From: Candidatus Bathyarchaeota archaeon
GTDB taxonomy: Archaea > Thermoproteota > Bathyarchaeia > Hecatellales > Hecatellaceae
DNA length: 64,000 nt
Assembly (NCBI GenBank): GCA_052246995.1
Contig: JBQPWD010000002.1
Span: 96,001-160,000, forward strand
Direction of reading: 5' to 3'
Shown: piece after piece, positions 39,065-43,180 of the stretch
How the letters are laid out: each line of letters starts with the position of its first letter
Position numbering within the stretch: the first letter of the stretch is position 1
The notes under the pieces: model-generated
The model's database searches: none
Told to the model about the DNA's origin: nothing
The model's input: the letters and a program-made list of their open reading frames with translations, nothing else
Position numbers and translations under genes: made by a program

Positions 39065-39655
39065 TTGGGGAACAATACAAGTCGTAAGACATTTCTTCCA
39101 AGAAAATTCTTTACTGTAAGCGCCTCAGCAACAAGTAACATCTCTCCATTAAACGCGTTTGATGCAGCTTTGATGAAAGCAGGCATTGCTCAATGCAATC
39201 TTGTTTGTGTTTCATCTATTCTTCCACAAGATGCCGAATACATTGAGAAATATGAAATTACGCCGGGAACTATAACATTCTGTGTTTTGGCGAGAATGGA
39301 TGGAAACCCAGGTGAAACAATAGGTGCGGGTATTGGCTGGGGATGGGGTGTTGATGCAAATGGAAGGAAATATGGAATCGTGGCGGAGGCACATGGATAT
39401 AAGGATAAGGAAGCCATTGAAAAAGAACTTAAGTGGAAACTACAGGAAATGGCAAAAATTAGGGGAATGGAGTTATCATCAGTAAACATAAAAAGCGAGC
39501 ATTTTCAAGTCCCTAAAGGAAAATACGGAAGTGTTATTGTATCCTTGGTATATGTTCCATGGGATACTGAAGAGAATGAAAAAACTAGCCAAGAAGAGAT
39601 GGTAAAACAAGAAATCATAACTCAACAAGTAAAAGAAGAAATGACACTACAATAA
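39065..39655 (+). CDS. pdaD: Pyruvoyl-dependent arginine decarboxylase
   Basis: NAFDAAL..AGI..CNLV.VSSILP (Ser-Ser cleavage site), EMAKIRG. Confidence 0.9.
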   Translation: MGNNTSRKTFLPRKFFTVSASATSNISPLNAFDAALMKAGIAQCNLVCVSSILPQDAEYIEKYEITPGTITFCVLARMDGNPGETIGAGIGWGWGVDANGRKYGIVAEAHGYKDKEAIEKELKWKLQEMAKIRGMELSSVNIKSEHFQVPKGKYGSVIVSLVYVPWDTEENEKTSQEEMVKQEIITQQVKEEMTLQ

Positions 39656-39668
39656 CTCGTAAATACAC

Positions 39669-39713
39669 CATCCAATTTTTTGGAGGATTACCAAGTCTCC
39701 AATTTTTTGGATG
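39669..39713. repeat. Two TCCAATTTTTTGGA copies forming a composite inverted repeat
   Basis: Copies at 39671-84 and 39698-711; third copy at 42870-83. Confidence 0.8.
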
Positions 39714-39846
39714 TTGGAAAAACATCTTCTAAAAGTGGGGAAAAAGAGGTACCCCTTAGTGTAAAAAATCTTGGAAACTTAGGGTTTTTTCTCCATGTTT
39801 TGTTATTTTGGTTAATTATGTATTACTATAACAACTTTTTCAACAA

Positions 39847-39893
39847 TTTTCTTTATATAACTTAGATTATATAAAGAAAAATCTTTATATAAC
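39847..39893. other. dif/lox-like recombination site (14-6-14) plus third half-site
   Basis: TTTTCTTTATATAA-CTTAGA-TTATATAAAGAAAA (39847-80); TCTTTATATAAC repeated at 39882-93; immediately upstream of a tyrosine recombinase. Confidence 0.65.
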
Positions 39894-39911
39894 CTTGAGA
39901 AATAGAGTCTT

Positions 39912-40973
39912 ATGCAGGAAGACTTCTCTAACTTTGAATCTGTCGCCAGATGGATAAGTAACTTTCCAGATAGACCAAACACGAAGAAGAATTATCTTAT
40001 TAGATTTAAAAAGTTTATTGATTGGATAGGAAAAAATCCTGATGACCTTATTGCTGAAGCAAAGAAAAATCCCCTAAAAATTCATAATAAAATAAAAGAA
40101 TACTATAATTTTTTAATAAAGAAAGGTTTTAGCTCTAAGACAGCTATCCTCTCCTATAATTGTTTAAGGTCCTTTTTCAAATGGAACGATATATTTTTAG
40201 GACCAACCCCCCGAGGATTTAAAGGTAGGGTTGAATATGAATCTTCCCATATTTTAACACCTGAAGAGATTGCAAAAATGGTTGATGTATGTAATAACAT
40301 GCGAGATAGATGTGTGATAACTTTTTTAGCTCAATCAGGACAACGTAGTGGGGTTTTAACGGCTCTTAGATATGGGCATGTTAAATCTGGGTTAGAAAGA
40401 GGAGAGACACCATTAATAATTGAAGTTCCAGCTGTTTTAAGAAATATTAATGGTGTAAATGTAAACAAGCTTGGAGAAAGCTATAGGTTTGCTGTTGGAA
40501 ATGATAGTATTACATGTCTTAAAATGATGCTCAAGGAGAGAATTGAGAGCGGAGAAGTTATTGATAAGGATAGTTGGCTTTTTAGAAGTTATTCAAAAGT
40601 TAAAGTTGAAAAAAGTGGGAAAAAAAGGCCTATTAGAGCATCAAAGAGTGAAAGAGGTTTTCCTTTAACAACAGTAGCTATACGTGAAATAATTAATAAG
40701 TCTGCTTTAAAAGCAGGAATTCAGGGAAAAGCTTCAGACAAAAGGTATGAGGTTCATCCGCATATTTTCAGGAGATATTGGAATATGAGAATGCAGGAAG
40801 CAGGATTAAGTGAAGATCTAAGGGATTTTATGCTTGGACATAAGTTACCTTATGGTGGAGCGTACAGCAAATGGTATCCTGATGCTATTAAAAGAGTATG
40901 GATTTCAAAAAATGTTGAAAAATATATTGCAATTCCATCAAAAACAATCTACGCGTATTCTGGACTACTTTAA
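39912..40973 (+). CDS. Tyrosine recombinase/integrase, intact catalytic set
   Basis: SGQR (R), NKLG (K), HIFRR (HxxR), MLGH (H), GAY (Y); SAM-like N-terminal domain. Confidence 0.9.
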   Translation: MQEDFSNFESVARWISNFPDRPNTKKNYLIRFKKFIDWIGKNPDDLIAEAKKNPLKIHNKIKEYYNFLIKKGFSSKTAILSYNCLRSFFKWNDIFLGPTPRGFKGRVEYESSHILTPEEIAKMVDVCNNMRDRCVITFLAQSGQRSGVLTALRYGHVKSGLERGETPLIIEVPAVLRNINGVNVNKLGESYRFAVGNDSITCLKMMLKERIESGEVIDKDSWLFRSYSKVKVEKSGKKRPIRASKSERGFPLTTVAIREIINKSALKAGIQGKASDKRYEVHPHIFRRYWNMRMQEAGLSEDLRDFMLGHKLPYGGAYSKWYPDAIKRVWISKNVEKYIAIPSKTIYAYSGLL

Positions 40974-41037
40974 CTTCAAAAAACTTTTATAGACGAACTT
41001 CCAATTTTATAAATTCTGCTAGCTGAGGGAGAAGATT

Positions 41038-42565
41038 ATGGGGTGTTATTTTATTTAGTAATAAAGAAGAGAATAAACCACGTGTAATTAAAATTTTTGA
41101 CACAACTCTAAGAGATGGAGAACAAACACCGGGAGTCTCTCTTTCACCTGAAAAAAAGCTTAGAATCGCCAAACTTCTTGATGAAGTTGGTGTTGATGTT
41201 ATTGAAGGAGGTTTTGCTAGCGTCTCTAGAGGGGACTTTGAGGCTTTAAAGATTATGAGCCAAAGCGGGCTTAACGCTGAGATTTTTAGTATGGCTAGAG
41301 CGGACATTAAAGATATAGATAAAGTTATTGAAAGTGGAGTTTGCGGGATCAACATTGTTGTTCCAGTATCAAAAATCCAGATTCAATACAAACTTAGAAA
41401 AACGTCAGATGAAGTTTTAAACTTAACATACGAGTGTGTTAATTACGCAAAAAAGCATGGGTTGATTGTTGAATTATCAGCTGAAGATGGCTCAAGAACA
41501 GAGGTTGAATTTCTTAAAAGCTTCTTTTTAACAGGTATTGCAAGTGGAGCTGACAGAATCTGCTTATGTGATACTGTTGGTGTTTTAACTCCTGAAAAAT
41601 GTTATAAGCTTGTAAATACCTTATGCAAAAGCACCAACAAGCCTTTTAGTATACATTGTCACAATGATTTTGGTTTAGCTACAGCAAACACTATCATAGC
41701 TGTTAAGGCAGGAGCATCTCAAGTACATGTAACCGTTAACGGTTTGGGTGAGAGAGCTGGAAATGCAGCATTAGAAGAGGTTGTAATGGCTCTTACAAAC
41801 CTTTACGGATTTAAAGTTAACATAAAAACAAACAAGTTATACGAGCTTTCCACGACGGTTTCACGCTTGACAGGTGTTCCAGTTCAACCAAATAAACCTA
41901 TAACAGGTGAAAATGCTTTTACTCATGAATCTGGCATTCACGTTAAAGCCATTTTAACCAACCCCGCCACCTATGAACCAATTCAGCCTGAAGTTGTAGG
42001 TGTTAAGAGAAAGCTTGCAATAGGTAAGCATGCAGGAATGTTTAGTGTAAAAACGATTCTCGAAGAAGAATTACACATTCATCCCTCGGAAGAACAACTT
42101 CATGAGATTTTTATGAGGGTTAAAAGCATTGGTGATAAAGGTAAAACAGTAACCTATAGCGACCTTCAAGCTATAGCTGAAGCAGTAATGGGTCTTCCAC
42201 AAATACGACTAATCAAGCTTAAAAATCTTACAGTAACAACAGGAAACAACATTACACCTATGGCCTCTGTCGTGCTTGAAGTTAACGGTAAAGAACTCGT
42301 TGAAGCTGGTGTGGGAGTTGGGCCTGTTGATGCAGCAATAAGTGCTATAAAGAAGGCTATATCAACAGTAGCCGACATAATCCTTGAGAATTATCATGTG
42401 AAGGCAATTACAGGTGGAACCGACGCTGTAGTTGAAGTTGTAGTAAGAGTAAGAAGAGGAGAAAAATCGGTTACAGCATTAGGTGTTCATGAAGATATTG
42501 TTATGGCTAGTGTTGAAGCAGTATTAAGTGCAATAAATGTATTGTTATCTTTAGAAATGAGCTAA
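41038..42565 (+). CDS. cimA: (R)-citramalate / 2-isopropylmalate synthase, CimA-like; start anomalous
   Basis: Frame extends upstream of ORF-track start to IFDTTLRDGEQTPG; HCHNDFG, GERAGN, HESGIH, C-terminal regulatory domain; IVVPVS resembles CimA more than LeuA. Confidence 0.8.
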
Positions 42566-43180
42566 TATTAGCAATAAACTTTTCAAATTCTGATAATGAA
42601 AAAATATTATTTTTGACATAATCCTGTACAAACTTATTTTTCAAGAGAAAACAGCTATTCTCTTTTTCATAATTTTTAAACAAAAAACGCATATTTTATA
42701 TCTTAAAATATAATCAAGTAAGCAAGTTTTTCTAAAAAATTAGTTGATGGTAGATAAATTTTATTGATAAGACCCCTAAACTTCTACTTTTCTCTCAAAT
42801 CTCCAAAATCTGAAAAGACCATTACAGTTAAACATAACCTAAAAAAGCACGATTACACCCTCATAACTCTCCAATTTTTTGGAAGCAAGAAATGATAGCC
42901 TAGGTTTATAGCTTTATCTTGAAACTTTTAGATTAGTATCCAACGAAATACTTGTCAATGCAAAAATGTTGTTTTAAAAATAGACAGTATACCTCATCCA
43001 GCTGGCATCATTTTTACAATTCTTTCGCCAAAACCGAACAATATGCTAATATACGAAGTTTGTAAACCTTGACTGGGATGACTTCTGCGTATGTCTTGTG
43101 GAGGAGACTAAAATCTAATAAAGGTAGAATTGGAATATGTCTACGAAGTAGATGATGTATAAAGTTCCAGAGTTTATTTT

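What the first reader, a model, noticed from the sequence alone, without database searches (positions are those of the whole stretch)
39847..40973. Solo tyrosine recombinase preceded by a perfect 14-6-14 dif/lox-like site and a third half-site on its own promoter
Seen: TTTTCTTTATATAA-CTTAGA-TTATATAAAGAAAA (39847-80) is a perfect 14-bp inverted repeat around an asymmetric 6-bp spacer. A third arm copy, TCTTTATATAAC (39882-93), contains the TTTATATA box about 28 nt before the recombinase ATG. The recombinase keeps R, K, HxxR, H and Y. The neighbours are housekeeping genes (pdaD, cimA) with no viral or plasmid genes. Known: ATAA-N6-TTAT is the core of bacterial and Thermococcales dif sites, loxP is a 34-bp arm-spacer-arm site, and FRT carries an extra third arm. 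Inference: a self-contained, possibly autoregulated recombinase/target pair. It could be a non-canonical chromosome dimer resolver or a minimal domesticated element, and may be a new Cre/Flp-like tool.
Basis: partly seen in the sequence, partly recalled or inferred. Interest (0 to 1): 0.78.

Follow-up and report, generated by a model that had tools for sequence, protein, structure and literature searches.

The report
Bathyarchaeal Xer recombinase beside its dif site
This is most likely the archaeon's chromosome-dimer-resolving recombinase sitting right next to its own DNA target site, a compact arrangement already known from some bacteria and archaea, here in a divergent protein lineage.

Summary
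Window 39847-39880 is a perfect 14-6-14 inverted repeat. A third 12-nt copy lies at 39882-39893, and the 353-aa tyrosine recombinase starts at 39912.

The gene is the only tyrosine recombinase found in this 1.53-Mb Hecatellales (Bathyarchaeia) genome. It scores far below the archaeal XerA cut-off, yet XerA is its closest solved relative by sequence and by fold. Orthologs (60-88% identity) keep the same chromosomal neighbourhood (pdaD ... xer ... cimA).

In 12 of 13 readable distinct loci they also keep an arm-6 bp-arm site at the same place. Its inner ATAA/TTAT and outer TC/GA positions are conserved, and the middle arm positions change on both arms together. The inner six bases of each arm equal the tested Pyrococcus abyssi dif.

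The best reading is a single-recombinase xer/dif module like XerS/difSL, XerH/difH and the reported archaeal xerA/dif modules (about 0.65).

The "third half-site" is conserved but does not follow the arms. It reads best as the gene's BRE/TATA promoter, so autoregulation is plausible but not shown. Skew analyses neither support nor exclude a terminus position.

Two side observations stand out: repeated flips of the 6-bp spacer between close relatives, and a conserved out-of-frame start on the neighbouring cimA-type gene.

The parts
39847..39880 (.). dif-like recombination site: 14-bp left arm, 6-bp asymmetric spacer CTTAGA, 14-bp right arm (28-bp core 39850-39877)
   Evidence: Read directly. 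Unique in the genome. Homologous sites at the same position in 12 of 13 distinct ortholog loci, with covarying arms. Inner ATATAA-N6-TTATAT is identical to the P. abyssi dif oligonucleotide printed in PMC2958812.
39882..39893 (+). third copy TCTTTATATAAC; most likely the BRE/TATA promoter element of the recombinase gene (TTTATATA 39884-39891, 21-28 nt before the ATG)
   Evidence: Conserved as ATC(T/C)TTATA(T/C)AAC in own, L028, L029, L037, L038, L064, L040 and L032, but it does not covary with the arms and is absent in L035 and L034. The promoter role is inferred from archaeal promoter geometry, which I recall rather than tested.
39912..40973 (+). xer-like tyrosine recombinase, 353 aa (R145, K186, H284, R287, H310, Y318)
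   Evidence: Pfam PF00589 44.7 bits against cut-off 27.1. NF040815 XerA 66.4 bits against cut-off 220. Model pLDDT 90.6. Top PDB fold hits are XerA 5hxy and 4a8e. The family profile hits only XerA twice and XerD among PDB sequences. Only PF00589 hit in G000.
39671..39711 (.). pair of TCCAA-W4-TTGGA dyads 27 nt apart (39671-39684 and 39698-39711), a conserved upstream flank of the module; function unknown
   Evidence: D6. Invariant in 11 of 11 aligned ortholog upstream regions. Only 3 exact copies in G000; the third is at window 42870. Also found at unrelated intergenic places in G001 and G003, so it is not xer-specific.
39712..39846 (.). AT-rich spacer between the dyads and the site, with a partly conserved block (...GTT..ATGTATKAC...)
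   Evidence: Alignment A3. No Rfam match. The 61-aa ORF 39680-39865 has no Pfam match.

Best explanation
The ORF encodes the organism's Xer-type chromosome-dimer resolvase. It belongs to a divergent, Bathyarchaeia-specific branch related to archaeal XerA. The palindrome directly upstream is its dif site.

Proposed mechanism (inferred): two recombinase monomers bind the two dyad-symmetric arms. Two such sites on a chromosome dimer synapse in the register fixed by the asymmetric 6-bp spacer. Y318 cleaves at the spacer borders, and two pairs of strand exchanges through a Holliday junction turn the dimer into monomers.

Gene and site form one module, as in XerS/difSL and XerH/difH. The gene's BRE/TATA starts 2 nt after the right arm, so bound recombinase probably also dampens its own transcription (inferred).

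Shown here: a tyrosine recombinase fold with all catalytic residues, the only such gene in the genome, vertical inheritance, and conservation and dyad covariation of the site. Not shown: binding, cleavage, recombination, dimer resolution, autoregulation.
For: (1) PF00589 finds one gene in the 100%-complete 1.53-Mb assembly, and it is this one. No genome of the 41 searched, G000 included, reaches the XerA cut-off.

(2) The closest solved relatives are XerA of T. acidophilum and P. abyssi, by fold (ranks 1-6) and by profile (3 hits, XerA twice and XerD).

(3) Orthologs at E<=1e-40 occur in 9 of 14 genomes of the order, and in 7 of 8 high-quality ones. The neighbourhood pdaD-(DNA ligase)-xer-cimA is shared.

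(4) In 13 distinct readable loci, an arm-6-arm site lies 31-47 nt before the start codon in 10. In 3 it lies 463-469 nt before, where a LAGLIDADG ORF is inserted between site and gene. ATAA-N6-TTAT is exact in 9 of 13. T4/A31 and C5/G30 are invariant.

(5) Dyad symmetry is kept through double changes. 77.9% of cells pair, against 68.2 +/- 2.2 in shuffles (0 of 500 reach it) and 36.5-47.9% in slid registers. 7 of 14 pairs have changes on both sides.

(6) 15 of 22 arm positions, including the inner six of each arm, equal the P. abyssi dif that XerA recombines in vitro (oligonucleotide in PMC2958812).

(7) The site is unique in the genome. The only other perfect IR with arms of 13 or more that is centred on a 6-bp spacer (C4:79190) is found in 0 of 5 relatives.

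(8) The review PMC5357621 states that single-recombinase Xer systems have the site next to the gene, and that some archaea have a xerA/dif module.
Against: No polarity signal marks the site. Cumulative GC skew on the 260-kb contig has no clear turning point there. The best k-mer strand-skew switch at the site is ordinary among control split points (15, 14 and 19 of 37 control splits reached or exceeded it for k=4, 5, 6). The assembly has 17 contigs, so the position relative to origins is unknown; orc1/cdc6 genes are on other contigs.

The protein fails the XerA equivalog cut-off by a wide margin.

In three loci the arms are only 5-7 of 14 symmetric. In G003 the inner core is not ATAA/TTAT.

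G002 (98% complete) lacks the ortholog.

In the wider 30-45% identical family I found no consistent upstream inverted repeat above shuffled controls.

There are no biochemical data and no RNA data.
Confidence: 0.65

Rival explanations
1. The palindrome is only a transcriptional operator. It would be bound by the recombinase itself or by another dimeric regulator to control the promoter that abuts it, and recombination would happen at some other site or not at all.
For: The right arm ends 2 nt before the BRE/TATA-like element, and the arms are dyad-symmetric as for any homodimeric DNA binder. There is no skew inversion at the site. In own and G001 the arms themselves are TATA-like.
Against: The 6-bp spacer with inner ATAA/TTAT and arms of 11-14 bp is the dif architecture, and it matches the P. 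abyssi dif inner arms. In three loci a LAGLIDADG ORF separates the site from the gene by about 465 nt, yet the site is kept. An operator that has to overlap the promoter would not be expected to survive that. No other dif candidate was found.
Confidence: 0.13
2. The gene is a domesticated or resident integrase of a mobile element. The palindrome would be its attachment or integration site, or a docking site for elements that exploit Xer.
For: The PHROG integrase families match (phrog_1, 64.6 bits). Relatives at 30-45% identity carry extra C-terminal or HTH domains and some sources name them 'integrase'. A homing-endonuclease gene sits in the module in three loci.
Against: Flanks are conserved housekeeping genes in own and relatives. 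There is no second copy of the site in the genome that could bound an element. tblastn finds no match in 50,697 phage records and only two weak partial matches in plasmids. The gene is single-copy, with identities tracking genus and family membership (88% in the same genus, 61-72% in other genera).
Confidence: 0.07
3. The repeat has no function of its own. It would be two opposed TATA-like boxes in AT-rich intergenic DNA, next to an ordinary gene.
For: The genome is 36% G+C, and TATA-like 11-mers with one mismatch are as common as chance predicts.
Against: The arms in most relatives are not TATA-like (TTAGTATAA, TTTCGATAA, CGTTGATAA), yet the dyad, the spacing and the position are kept with compensatory changes. 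The upstream gene is co-directional, so there is no divergent gene to serve.
Confidence: 0.03

Closest known systems
Archaeal XerA/dif (Pyrococcus abyssi, Thermoplasma acidophilum, Sulfolobus)
   Same: A single chromosomal tyrosine recombinase. The site is an inverted repeat around a 6-bp spacer (11-bp arms in the published sites, 11-14 bp here) with inner ATATAA/TTATAT. XerA is the nearest solved fold and sequence. Some archaea are reported to have xerA and dif as one module (PMC5357621, section 14).
   Different: Only 17-20% identity to XerA structures, and 66 bits against the 220-bit NCBIfam cut-off. About 60-70 residues longer than the solved XerA chains. In Thermococcales dif is not next to xerA (PMC2958812 passage), whereas here it abuts the promoter. 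No polarity skew was detected.
XerS/difSL (streptococci, lactococci) and XerH/difH (Helicobacter, Campylobacter)
   Same: One recombinase of about 355 aa, with the target site immediately beside its gene as a genetic module (PMC5357621 passages).
   Different: These are bacterial and FtsK-dependent. difSL has an 11-bp central region and unequal arms. XerH is only a distant fold match (rank 41, E 1.2e-4). The likeness is in how the system works, not in family membership.
Cre/loxP
   Same: A two-domain simple tyrosine recombinase acting on a 34-bp site: symmetric arms around an asymmetric spacer that sets direction. Cre chains are fold hits (ranks 11-40).
   Different: loxP is 13-8-13 (recalled, not from a call) and is phage-borne. 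Identity is 12-15%. Here the spacer is 6 bp and the context is chromosomal.
Flp/FRT with its third arm
   Same: A third copy of the arm in direct orientation next to the core site.
   Different: Here the third copy does not covary with the arms and coincides with the TATA box. No Flp chain appears among the fold hits listed.

Membership tests
Tyrosine recombinase superfamily (Pfam PF00589) | Profile score above the curated cut-off | tested here: met
   44.7 bits against 27.1.
Tyrosine recombinase superfamily (Pfam PF00589) | Catalytic R-K-H-R-[H/W]-Y | tested here: met
   R145, K186, H284, R287, H310, Y318. They are invariant or nearly so in 35 relatives, and R145, H284, R287 and H310 align to XerA. 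The choice of Y318 over Y314 rests on spacing only.
Tyrosine recombinase superfamily (Pfam PF00589) | Two-domain Cre/Xer-like fold | tested here: met
   Model pLDDT 90.6. 62 PDB chains at E<=0.001; those listed are tyrosine recombinases or integrases.
Archaeal XerA (NCBIfam NF040815 equivalog) | Score above the equivalog cut-off (220 bits) | tested here: not met
   66.4 bits, and mainly the N-terminal half matches. 0 of 41 genomes searched (40 Bathyarchaeia relatives plus G000) reach the cut-off.
Archaeal XerA (NCBIfam NF040815 equivalog) | A unique chromosomal dif: imperfect inverted repeat of about 11 bp around a 6-bp spacer, resembling the dif consensus | tested here: met
Archaeal XerA (NCBIfam NF040815 equivalog) | dif lies in the replication termination region, with skewed words pointing to it | tested here: inconclusive
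   No inversion of GC skew or k-mer skew at the site on a 260-kb contig. The assembly is fragmented and two orc1/cdc6 genes suggest more than one origin.
Archaeal XerA (NCBIfam NF040815 equivalog) | The protein recombines dif-carrying DNA | not testable with these tools
   Needs biochemistry.
Single-recombinase xer/dif modules (XerS/difSL, XerH/difH type) | The site is immediately adjacent to the recombinase gene and is conserved with it | tested here: met
   31-47 nt upstream in 10 of 13 distinct loci, and within 470 nt in the other 3.
Single-recombinase xer/dif modules (XerS/difSL, XerH/difH type) | Sequence relationship to XerS or XerH | tested here: not met
   XerH is a weak fold hit only (rank 41). 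The family profile hits no XerH chain; XerS has no listed structure hit.
Mobile-element integrase with att site | Element genes and a duplicated site flanking the integrase | tested here: not met
   Housekeeping flanks with shared synteny. A single site in the genome. No phage relatives and only weak plasmid relatives.
Flp/FRT-like three-arm site | The third arm is a binding site that evolves with the other two | tested here: not met
   The third element stays TATA-like while the arms change, and it is absent in genus g5.

The most novel reading that the evidence does not exclude
The pair is a fully autonomous recombination cassette from a hot-spring archaeon that needs no host factor: one small enzyme, one 34-bp site with interchangeable arms, and self-limiting expression because the site overlaps its own promoter. 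The repeated flips of the spacer between close relatives would be made by the enzyme itself acting on its symmetric site. That would give an orthogonal, thermostable Cre/lox-like tool. It would also show that archaeal dimer resolution needs no directional control.
Probability: 0.15. Interest if true: 0.6.

Novelty: new variant of a known kind. Interest (0 to 1): 0.38.

Why it matters
Bathyarchaeia are abundant and uncultured, and in the 41 genomes searched none has a recognisable XerA. This locus offers a concrete candidate, at least for the order Hecatellales, for how circular-chromosome dimers are resolved. It comes with a defined 34-bp substrate that can be tested in vitro without culturing the organism.

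It extends the 'gene next to its dif' module, best known from XerS and XerH, to a divergent archaeal lineage. Symmetric arms with an asymmetric 6-bp spacer make a simple candidate for a thermostable site-specific recombination tool.

For a specialist the arrangement is expected rather than surprising.

Tried and rejected
GC skew, AT skew and k-mer strand-skew change-point tests on contig C2 gave no signal at the site. I treat this as inconclusive, not as evidence against.

In the 30-45% identical wider family (45 distinct upstream regions), the best 12-nt-arm inverted repeats did not exceed shuffled controls, apart from a few locus pairs (L062/L063, L082/L087, L092/L099). I could not extend the module beyond Hecatellales.

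Rfam found nothing in 39500-41300. The sigma-70 and terminator scan is not suited to archaea and gave nothing useful.

Sequencing runs: 6 runs of 2 studies were listed (hot-spring metagenomes), and no RNA holder is on record. Contigs of 4 runs from one study carry the same spacer orientation with no variant. Contigs drop rare variants, so this says nothing about flipping within populations.

I looked for a moved dif in genomes with the LAGLIDADG insertion. The site turned out still to be there, upstream of the inserted ORF.

G002 and G004 lack the ortholog. Their more distant recombinases (L015, L012) showed no comparable site or synteny.

ARAGORN found only 32 tRNAs in G000, too incomplete to say anything about decoding at the cimA leader.

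Literature: 'Bathyarchae' plus 'tyrosine recombinase' gave 8 papers, 6 listed, none on Xer/dif by title or abstract. 'Hecatell' gave 2 papers on metabolism. A search on programmed frameshift, leader peptide and archaea listed nothing on cimA. These are search listings only; supplements were not seen, and Figures S3 and S4 and Table S1 of PMC2958812 could bear on dif consensus and positions.

Complex prediction was not used, because binding of a homodimer would not discriminate between the readings.
Full report
WHAT IS THERE.

Window 39847-39880 reads TTTTCTTTATATAA-CTTAGA-TTATATAAAGAAAA, a perfect 14-6-14 inverted repeat. TCTTTATATAAC follows at 39882-39893, and the ATG of a 353-aa ORF (39912-40973, + strand) comes 19 nt later.

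The exact 11-mer TCTTTATATAA occurs three times in the window, all in this spot. With one mismatch the 11-mer is as frequent as chance predicts (6 found, 5.19 expected). What is unusual is therefore the palindrome, not the word.

The 28-bp core is unique in the whole 1.53-Mb assembly at up to 3 mismatches. Only two other loci in the genome carry longer perfect short-spacer palindromes.

THE PROTEIN.

- Pfam places it in the phage-integrase (tyrosine recombinase) family at 44.7 bits against a cut-off of 27.1, with a weak N-terminal SAM-like domain.
- The NCBIfam archaeal XerA model matches at 66.4 bits against a cut-off of 220, so it is not a canonical XerA.
- An alignment of 35 relatives keeps R145, K186, H310 and W290 invariant, and R287, Y314 and Y318 nearly so. 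HMMER's alignment to P. abyssi XerA pairs R145, H284, R287 and H310 with the XerA catalytic residues.
- The AlphaFold model is confident (pLDDT 90.6). Its best PDB matches are the two archaeal XerA structures (ranks 1-6), followed by integron integrase, Tn1549 integrase and Cre. XerH appears only at rank 41.
- A profile of the family finds just three solved relatives by sequence: XerA twice and E. coli XerD.
- tblastn finds nothing in 50,697 phage records and two weak partial haloarchaeal hits in plasmids.

THE GENOME AND ITS RELATIVES.

Record titles of related contigs name Bathyarchaeia and Hecatellales. The runs that hold the stretch are hot-spring metagenomes.

PF00589 finds exactly one gene in this 100%-complete assembly, and it is this one. 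None of the 41 genomes searched, G000 included, reaches the XerA cut-off, and 17 of 41 have no hit at E<=1e-10.

Orthologs at 60-88% identity are present in 9 of the 14 genomes held for the order, and in 7 of 8 high-quality ones. G002 at 98% completeness lacks it.

The neighbourhood is shared: pdaD, then in most genera an ATP-dependent DNA ligase, then xer, then the cimA-type gene. The own genus lacks the ligase at this place and has it on other contigs. This is the pattern of a vertically inherited chromosomal gene, not of a mobile element.

THE SITE IN RELATIVES.

I collected 13 distinct readable upstream regions. Three further loci were set aside: L006/L030 is withheld as N, L044 is cut after 51 nt, and L108 does not reach the start.

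- In 10 of the 13, an arm-6 bp-arm site ends 31-47 nt before the start codon.
- In the other 3 (L031, L033, L042), a 131-aa LAGLIDADG-type ORF (PF00961, 23.3 bits) is inserted between site and gene, and the site lies 463-469 nt upstream.
- ATAA-N6-TTAT is exact in 9 of 13. L033 and L042 have ATAA-N6-TTAA, L031 has ACAA-N6-TTAA, and G003 (L032) deviates in the inner four bases while keeping eight perfectly symmetric outer bases.
- Positions T4/A31 and C5/G30 are invariant.
- The middle of the arms differs between lineages but changes on both arms together. Examples: TTTATATAA/TTATATAAA, TTAGTATAA/TTATACTAA, TTTCGATAA/TTATCG(A/T)T(G/A)G.

Counted as a dyad:

| Measure | Value |
|---|---|
| Cells symmetric, observed | 77.9% |
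| Cells symmetric, shuffled | 68.2 +/- 2.2% (0 of 500 shuffles reach the observed value) |
| Cells symmetric, partner slid by 1-3 columns | 36.5-47.9% |
| Pairs with changes on both sides | 7 of 14 |

Two cautions apply. The tool counts G-T as a pair, which has no meaning for a DNA dyad. The sequences are also related, so the shuffle figure is not a probability.

The arms of most relatives are not TATA-like. This removes the 'back-to-back TATA boxes' alternative.

COMPARISON WITH A TESTED dif.

The oligonucleotide used by Cortez et al. for P. abyssi dif is printed in the Methods of PMC2958812 (passage seen): ATTGGATATAA-TCGGCC-TTATATCTAAA. Against our 28-bp core, 15 of 22 arm positions are identical, including all six inner bases of each arm.

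The same paper says that Thermococcales dif sites are not next to xerA. The review PMC5357621 (passages and section 14 read) states three things. xerS lies immediately adjacent to difSL 'as a single module'. Nearness of site and gene may be a hallmark of single recombinases (XerS, XerH). [quoted passage not shown] The arrangement found here is therefore a known kind.

THE THIRD COPY.

The element after the right arm is conserved as ATC(T/C)TTATA(T/C)AAC in own, L028, L029, L037, L038, L064, L040 and L032. It stays TATA-like where the arms have become TTAGTATAA or TTTCGATAA. It is not recognisable in L035 and L034.

It begins 2 nt after the right arm, and its TTTATATA lies 21-28 nt before the ATG. 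That fits an archaeal BRE/TATA serving a leaderless or nearly leaderless mRNA; this geometry is recalled knowledge, not tested here.

It may in addition be touched by recombinase bound to the right arm, which would give negative autoregulation. That is an inference from overlap only.

WHAT DOES NOT FIT OR COULD NOT BE SHOWN.

- Cumulative GC skew on contig C2 follows gene orientation and has no clear extremum at 135.8 kb.
- A change-point test over all 4-, 5- and 6-mers gave maximal |z| of 4.9, 4.8 and 3.7 at the site. 15, 14 and 19 of 37 control split points reached or exceeded these values.
- The two orc1/cdc6 genes are on contigs C5 and C1. In the 3-contig relative G003 they are on C2, while xer is on C1. 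The position of the site relative to origins is therefore unknown.
- The wider family (30-45% identity, 370-450 aa, some with C-terminal extensions) shows no consistent upstream palindrome.

VERDICT.

The best reading is a single-recombinase xer/dif module of a divergent XerA-related lineage (confidence 0.65). The rivals are an operator-only palindrome (0.13), a domesticated integrase with its att site (0.07) and a functionless repeat (0.03).

It works like XerA/dif and is organised like XerS/difSL. It is a member of the tyrosine recombinase superfamily, but not of the XerA equivalog as defined by NCBIfam, and not of the XerS or XerH families.

SIDE OBSERVATIONS.

(a) The asymmetric spacer is the exact reverse complement between close relatives while the arms stay. 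It is CTTAGA in own and TCTAAG in the same-genus G001, with 27 of 28 arm bases identical. It is TTTAAG in L029 and CTTAAA in L037, with 28 of 28 arm bases identical and 217 of 232 aligned upstream columns identical. That makes two independent flips. Template switching within the palindrome is the simplest cause (inference), and action by the recombinase itself cannot be excluded. Either way, the orientation of the site relative to its flanks seems free, as expected for identical arms and no directional partner.

(b) Two TCCAA-W4-TTGGA dyads 27 nt apart are the most conserved feature of the intergenic region, invariant in 11 of 11 aligned regions. They are rare in the genome: 3 exact copies, the third at window 42870. 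They also occur in a cas6-cas2 intergenic region of G003 and near an ATP synthase gene of G001. They are probably sites of an unidentified dimeric DNA-binding protein.

(c) The cimA-type gene downstream has no in-frame ATG, GTG or TTG before its catalytic FDTTLRDGEQ motif.
- An ATG at 41038 sits one base out of frame: ATG-G, then the ORF.
- In that frame it opens only a 6-codon ORF, MGCYFI-stop.
- Of 30 loci from 41 genomes, 21 (19 at 52-100% identity to the first 120 residues, plus L146 and L147) show (A/G)TGG followed by the ORF in the +1 frame.
- 12 of these 21 have no canonical in-frame start at all. In 5, a stop codon overlaps the out-of-frame start.
- Synonymous variation (GGT/GGG/GGA/GGC, ATT/ATC/ATA) argues that the +1 frame is the translated one, while TTT-AT(T/C) is invariant.
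- The nine other loci (paralog-type, 46-53% identity) have ordinary starts.
- This looks like a conserved +1 recoding or otherwise unusual initiation on the first enzyme of the citramalate route to isoleucine. I have no mechanism that explains all the constraints.

Noticed in passing
window 41024-41100 (uORF 41038-41058; cimA-type ORF in the frame of 41039/41081 up to 42565); relatives L122-L140, L146, L147: The citramalate/isopropylmalate-synthase-type gene has no in-frame canonical start before its catalytic motif. A conserved (A/G)TG lies one base out of frame (RTG-G-ORF) and opens only a mini-ORF, M-G-x-x-F-I followed by a stop after 0-2 more codons. This is seen in 21 of 30 loci examined, across many Bathyarchaeia families. 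12 of the 21 have no alternative in-frame start. Synonymous changes favour the +1 frame as the translated one. It may be a programmed +1 shift or unusual initiation, perhaps sensing Ile or branched-chain supply.
   Followed up: partly
window 39861-39866; L028:2949-2954; L029:1629-1634; L037:180-185: The 6-bp spacer of the dif-like site is exactly reverse-complemented between close relatives while the arms are unchanged: own against G001, and L029 against L037. These are two independent flips of the central region.
   Followed up: partly
window 39671-39684, 39698-39711 and 42870-42883; same pair in 11 of 11 ortholog upstream regions: TCCAA-W4-TTGGA dyads occur as a pair 27 nt apart upstream of the site. 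Only 3 exact copies exist in the genome. The orientation of the central A/T tract varies between orthologs. The motif is also present between cas6 and cas2 in G003 and near ATP synthase subunit D in G001. The binding protein is unknown.
   Followed up: partly
L031:2593-2988, and the equivalent ORFs in L033 and L042: A free-standing 131-aa LAGLIDADG-type homing endonuclease ORF is inserted exactly between the dif-like site and the xer start codon in three loci. The site arms there are less symmetric (5-7 of 14).
   Followed up: partly
window 39065-39911 against L031:1-3000: Most relatives carry an ATP-dependent DNA ligase gene between pdaD and the xer module. The own genus (G000, G001) does not, and G000 has its two ligase genes on contigs C1 and C6.
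   Followed up: partly
G000 C7:84376-84417 and C15:2624-2665 (outside the window): These are the two longest perfect palindromes of the genome (19-4-19), both between ORFs. C15 is a 6-kb contig. They were not examined further.
   Followed up: no
L006 and L030, about 100 nt upstream of the xer ortholog of G006: The stretch where the dif-like site is expected reads as a run of N (withheld). This ortholog could not be scored.
   Followed up: no
L032:2917-2950 (G003): The G003 site keeps 11 perfectly symmetric outer bases (TTTTTCCGTAT/ATACGGAAAAA) but has a 14-nt centre without the ATAA/TTAT core. The site appears to have changed in this lineage.
   Followed up: no
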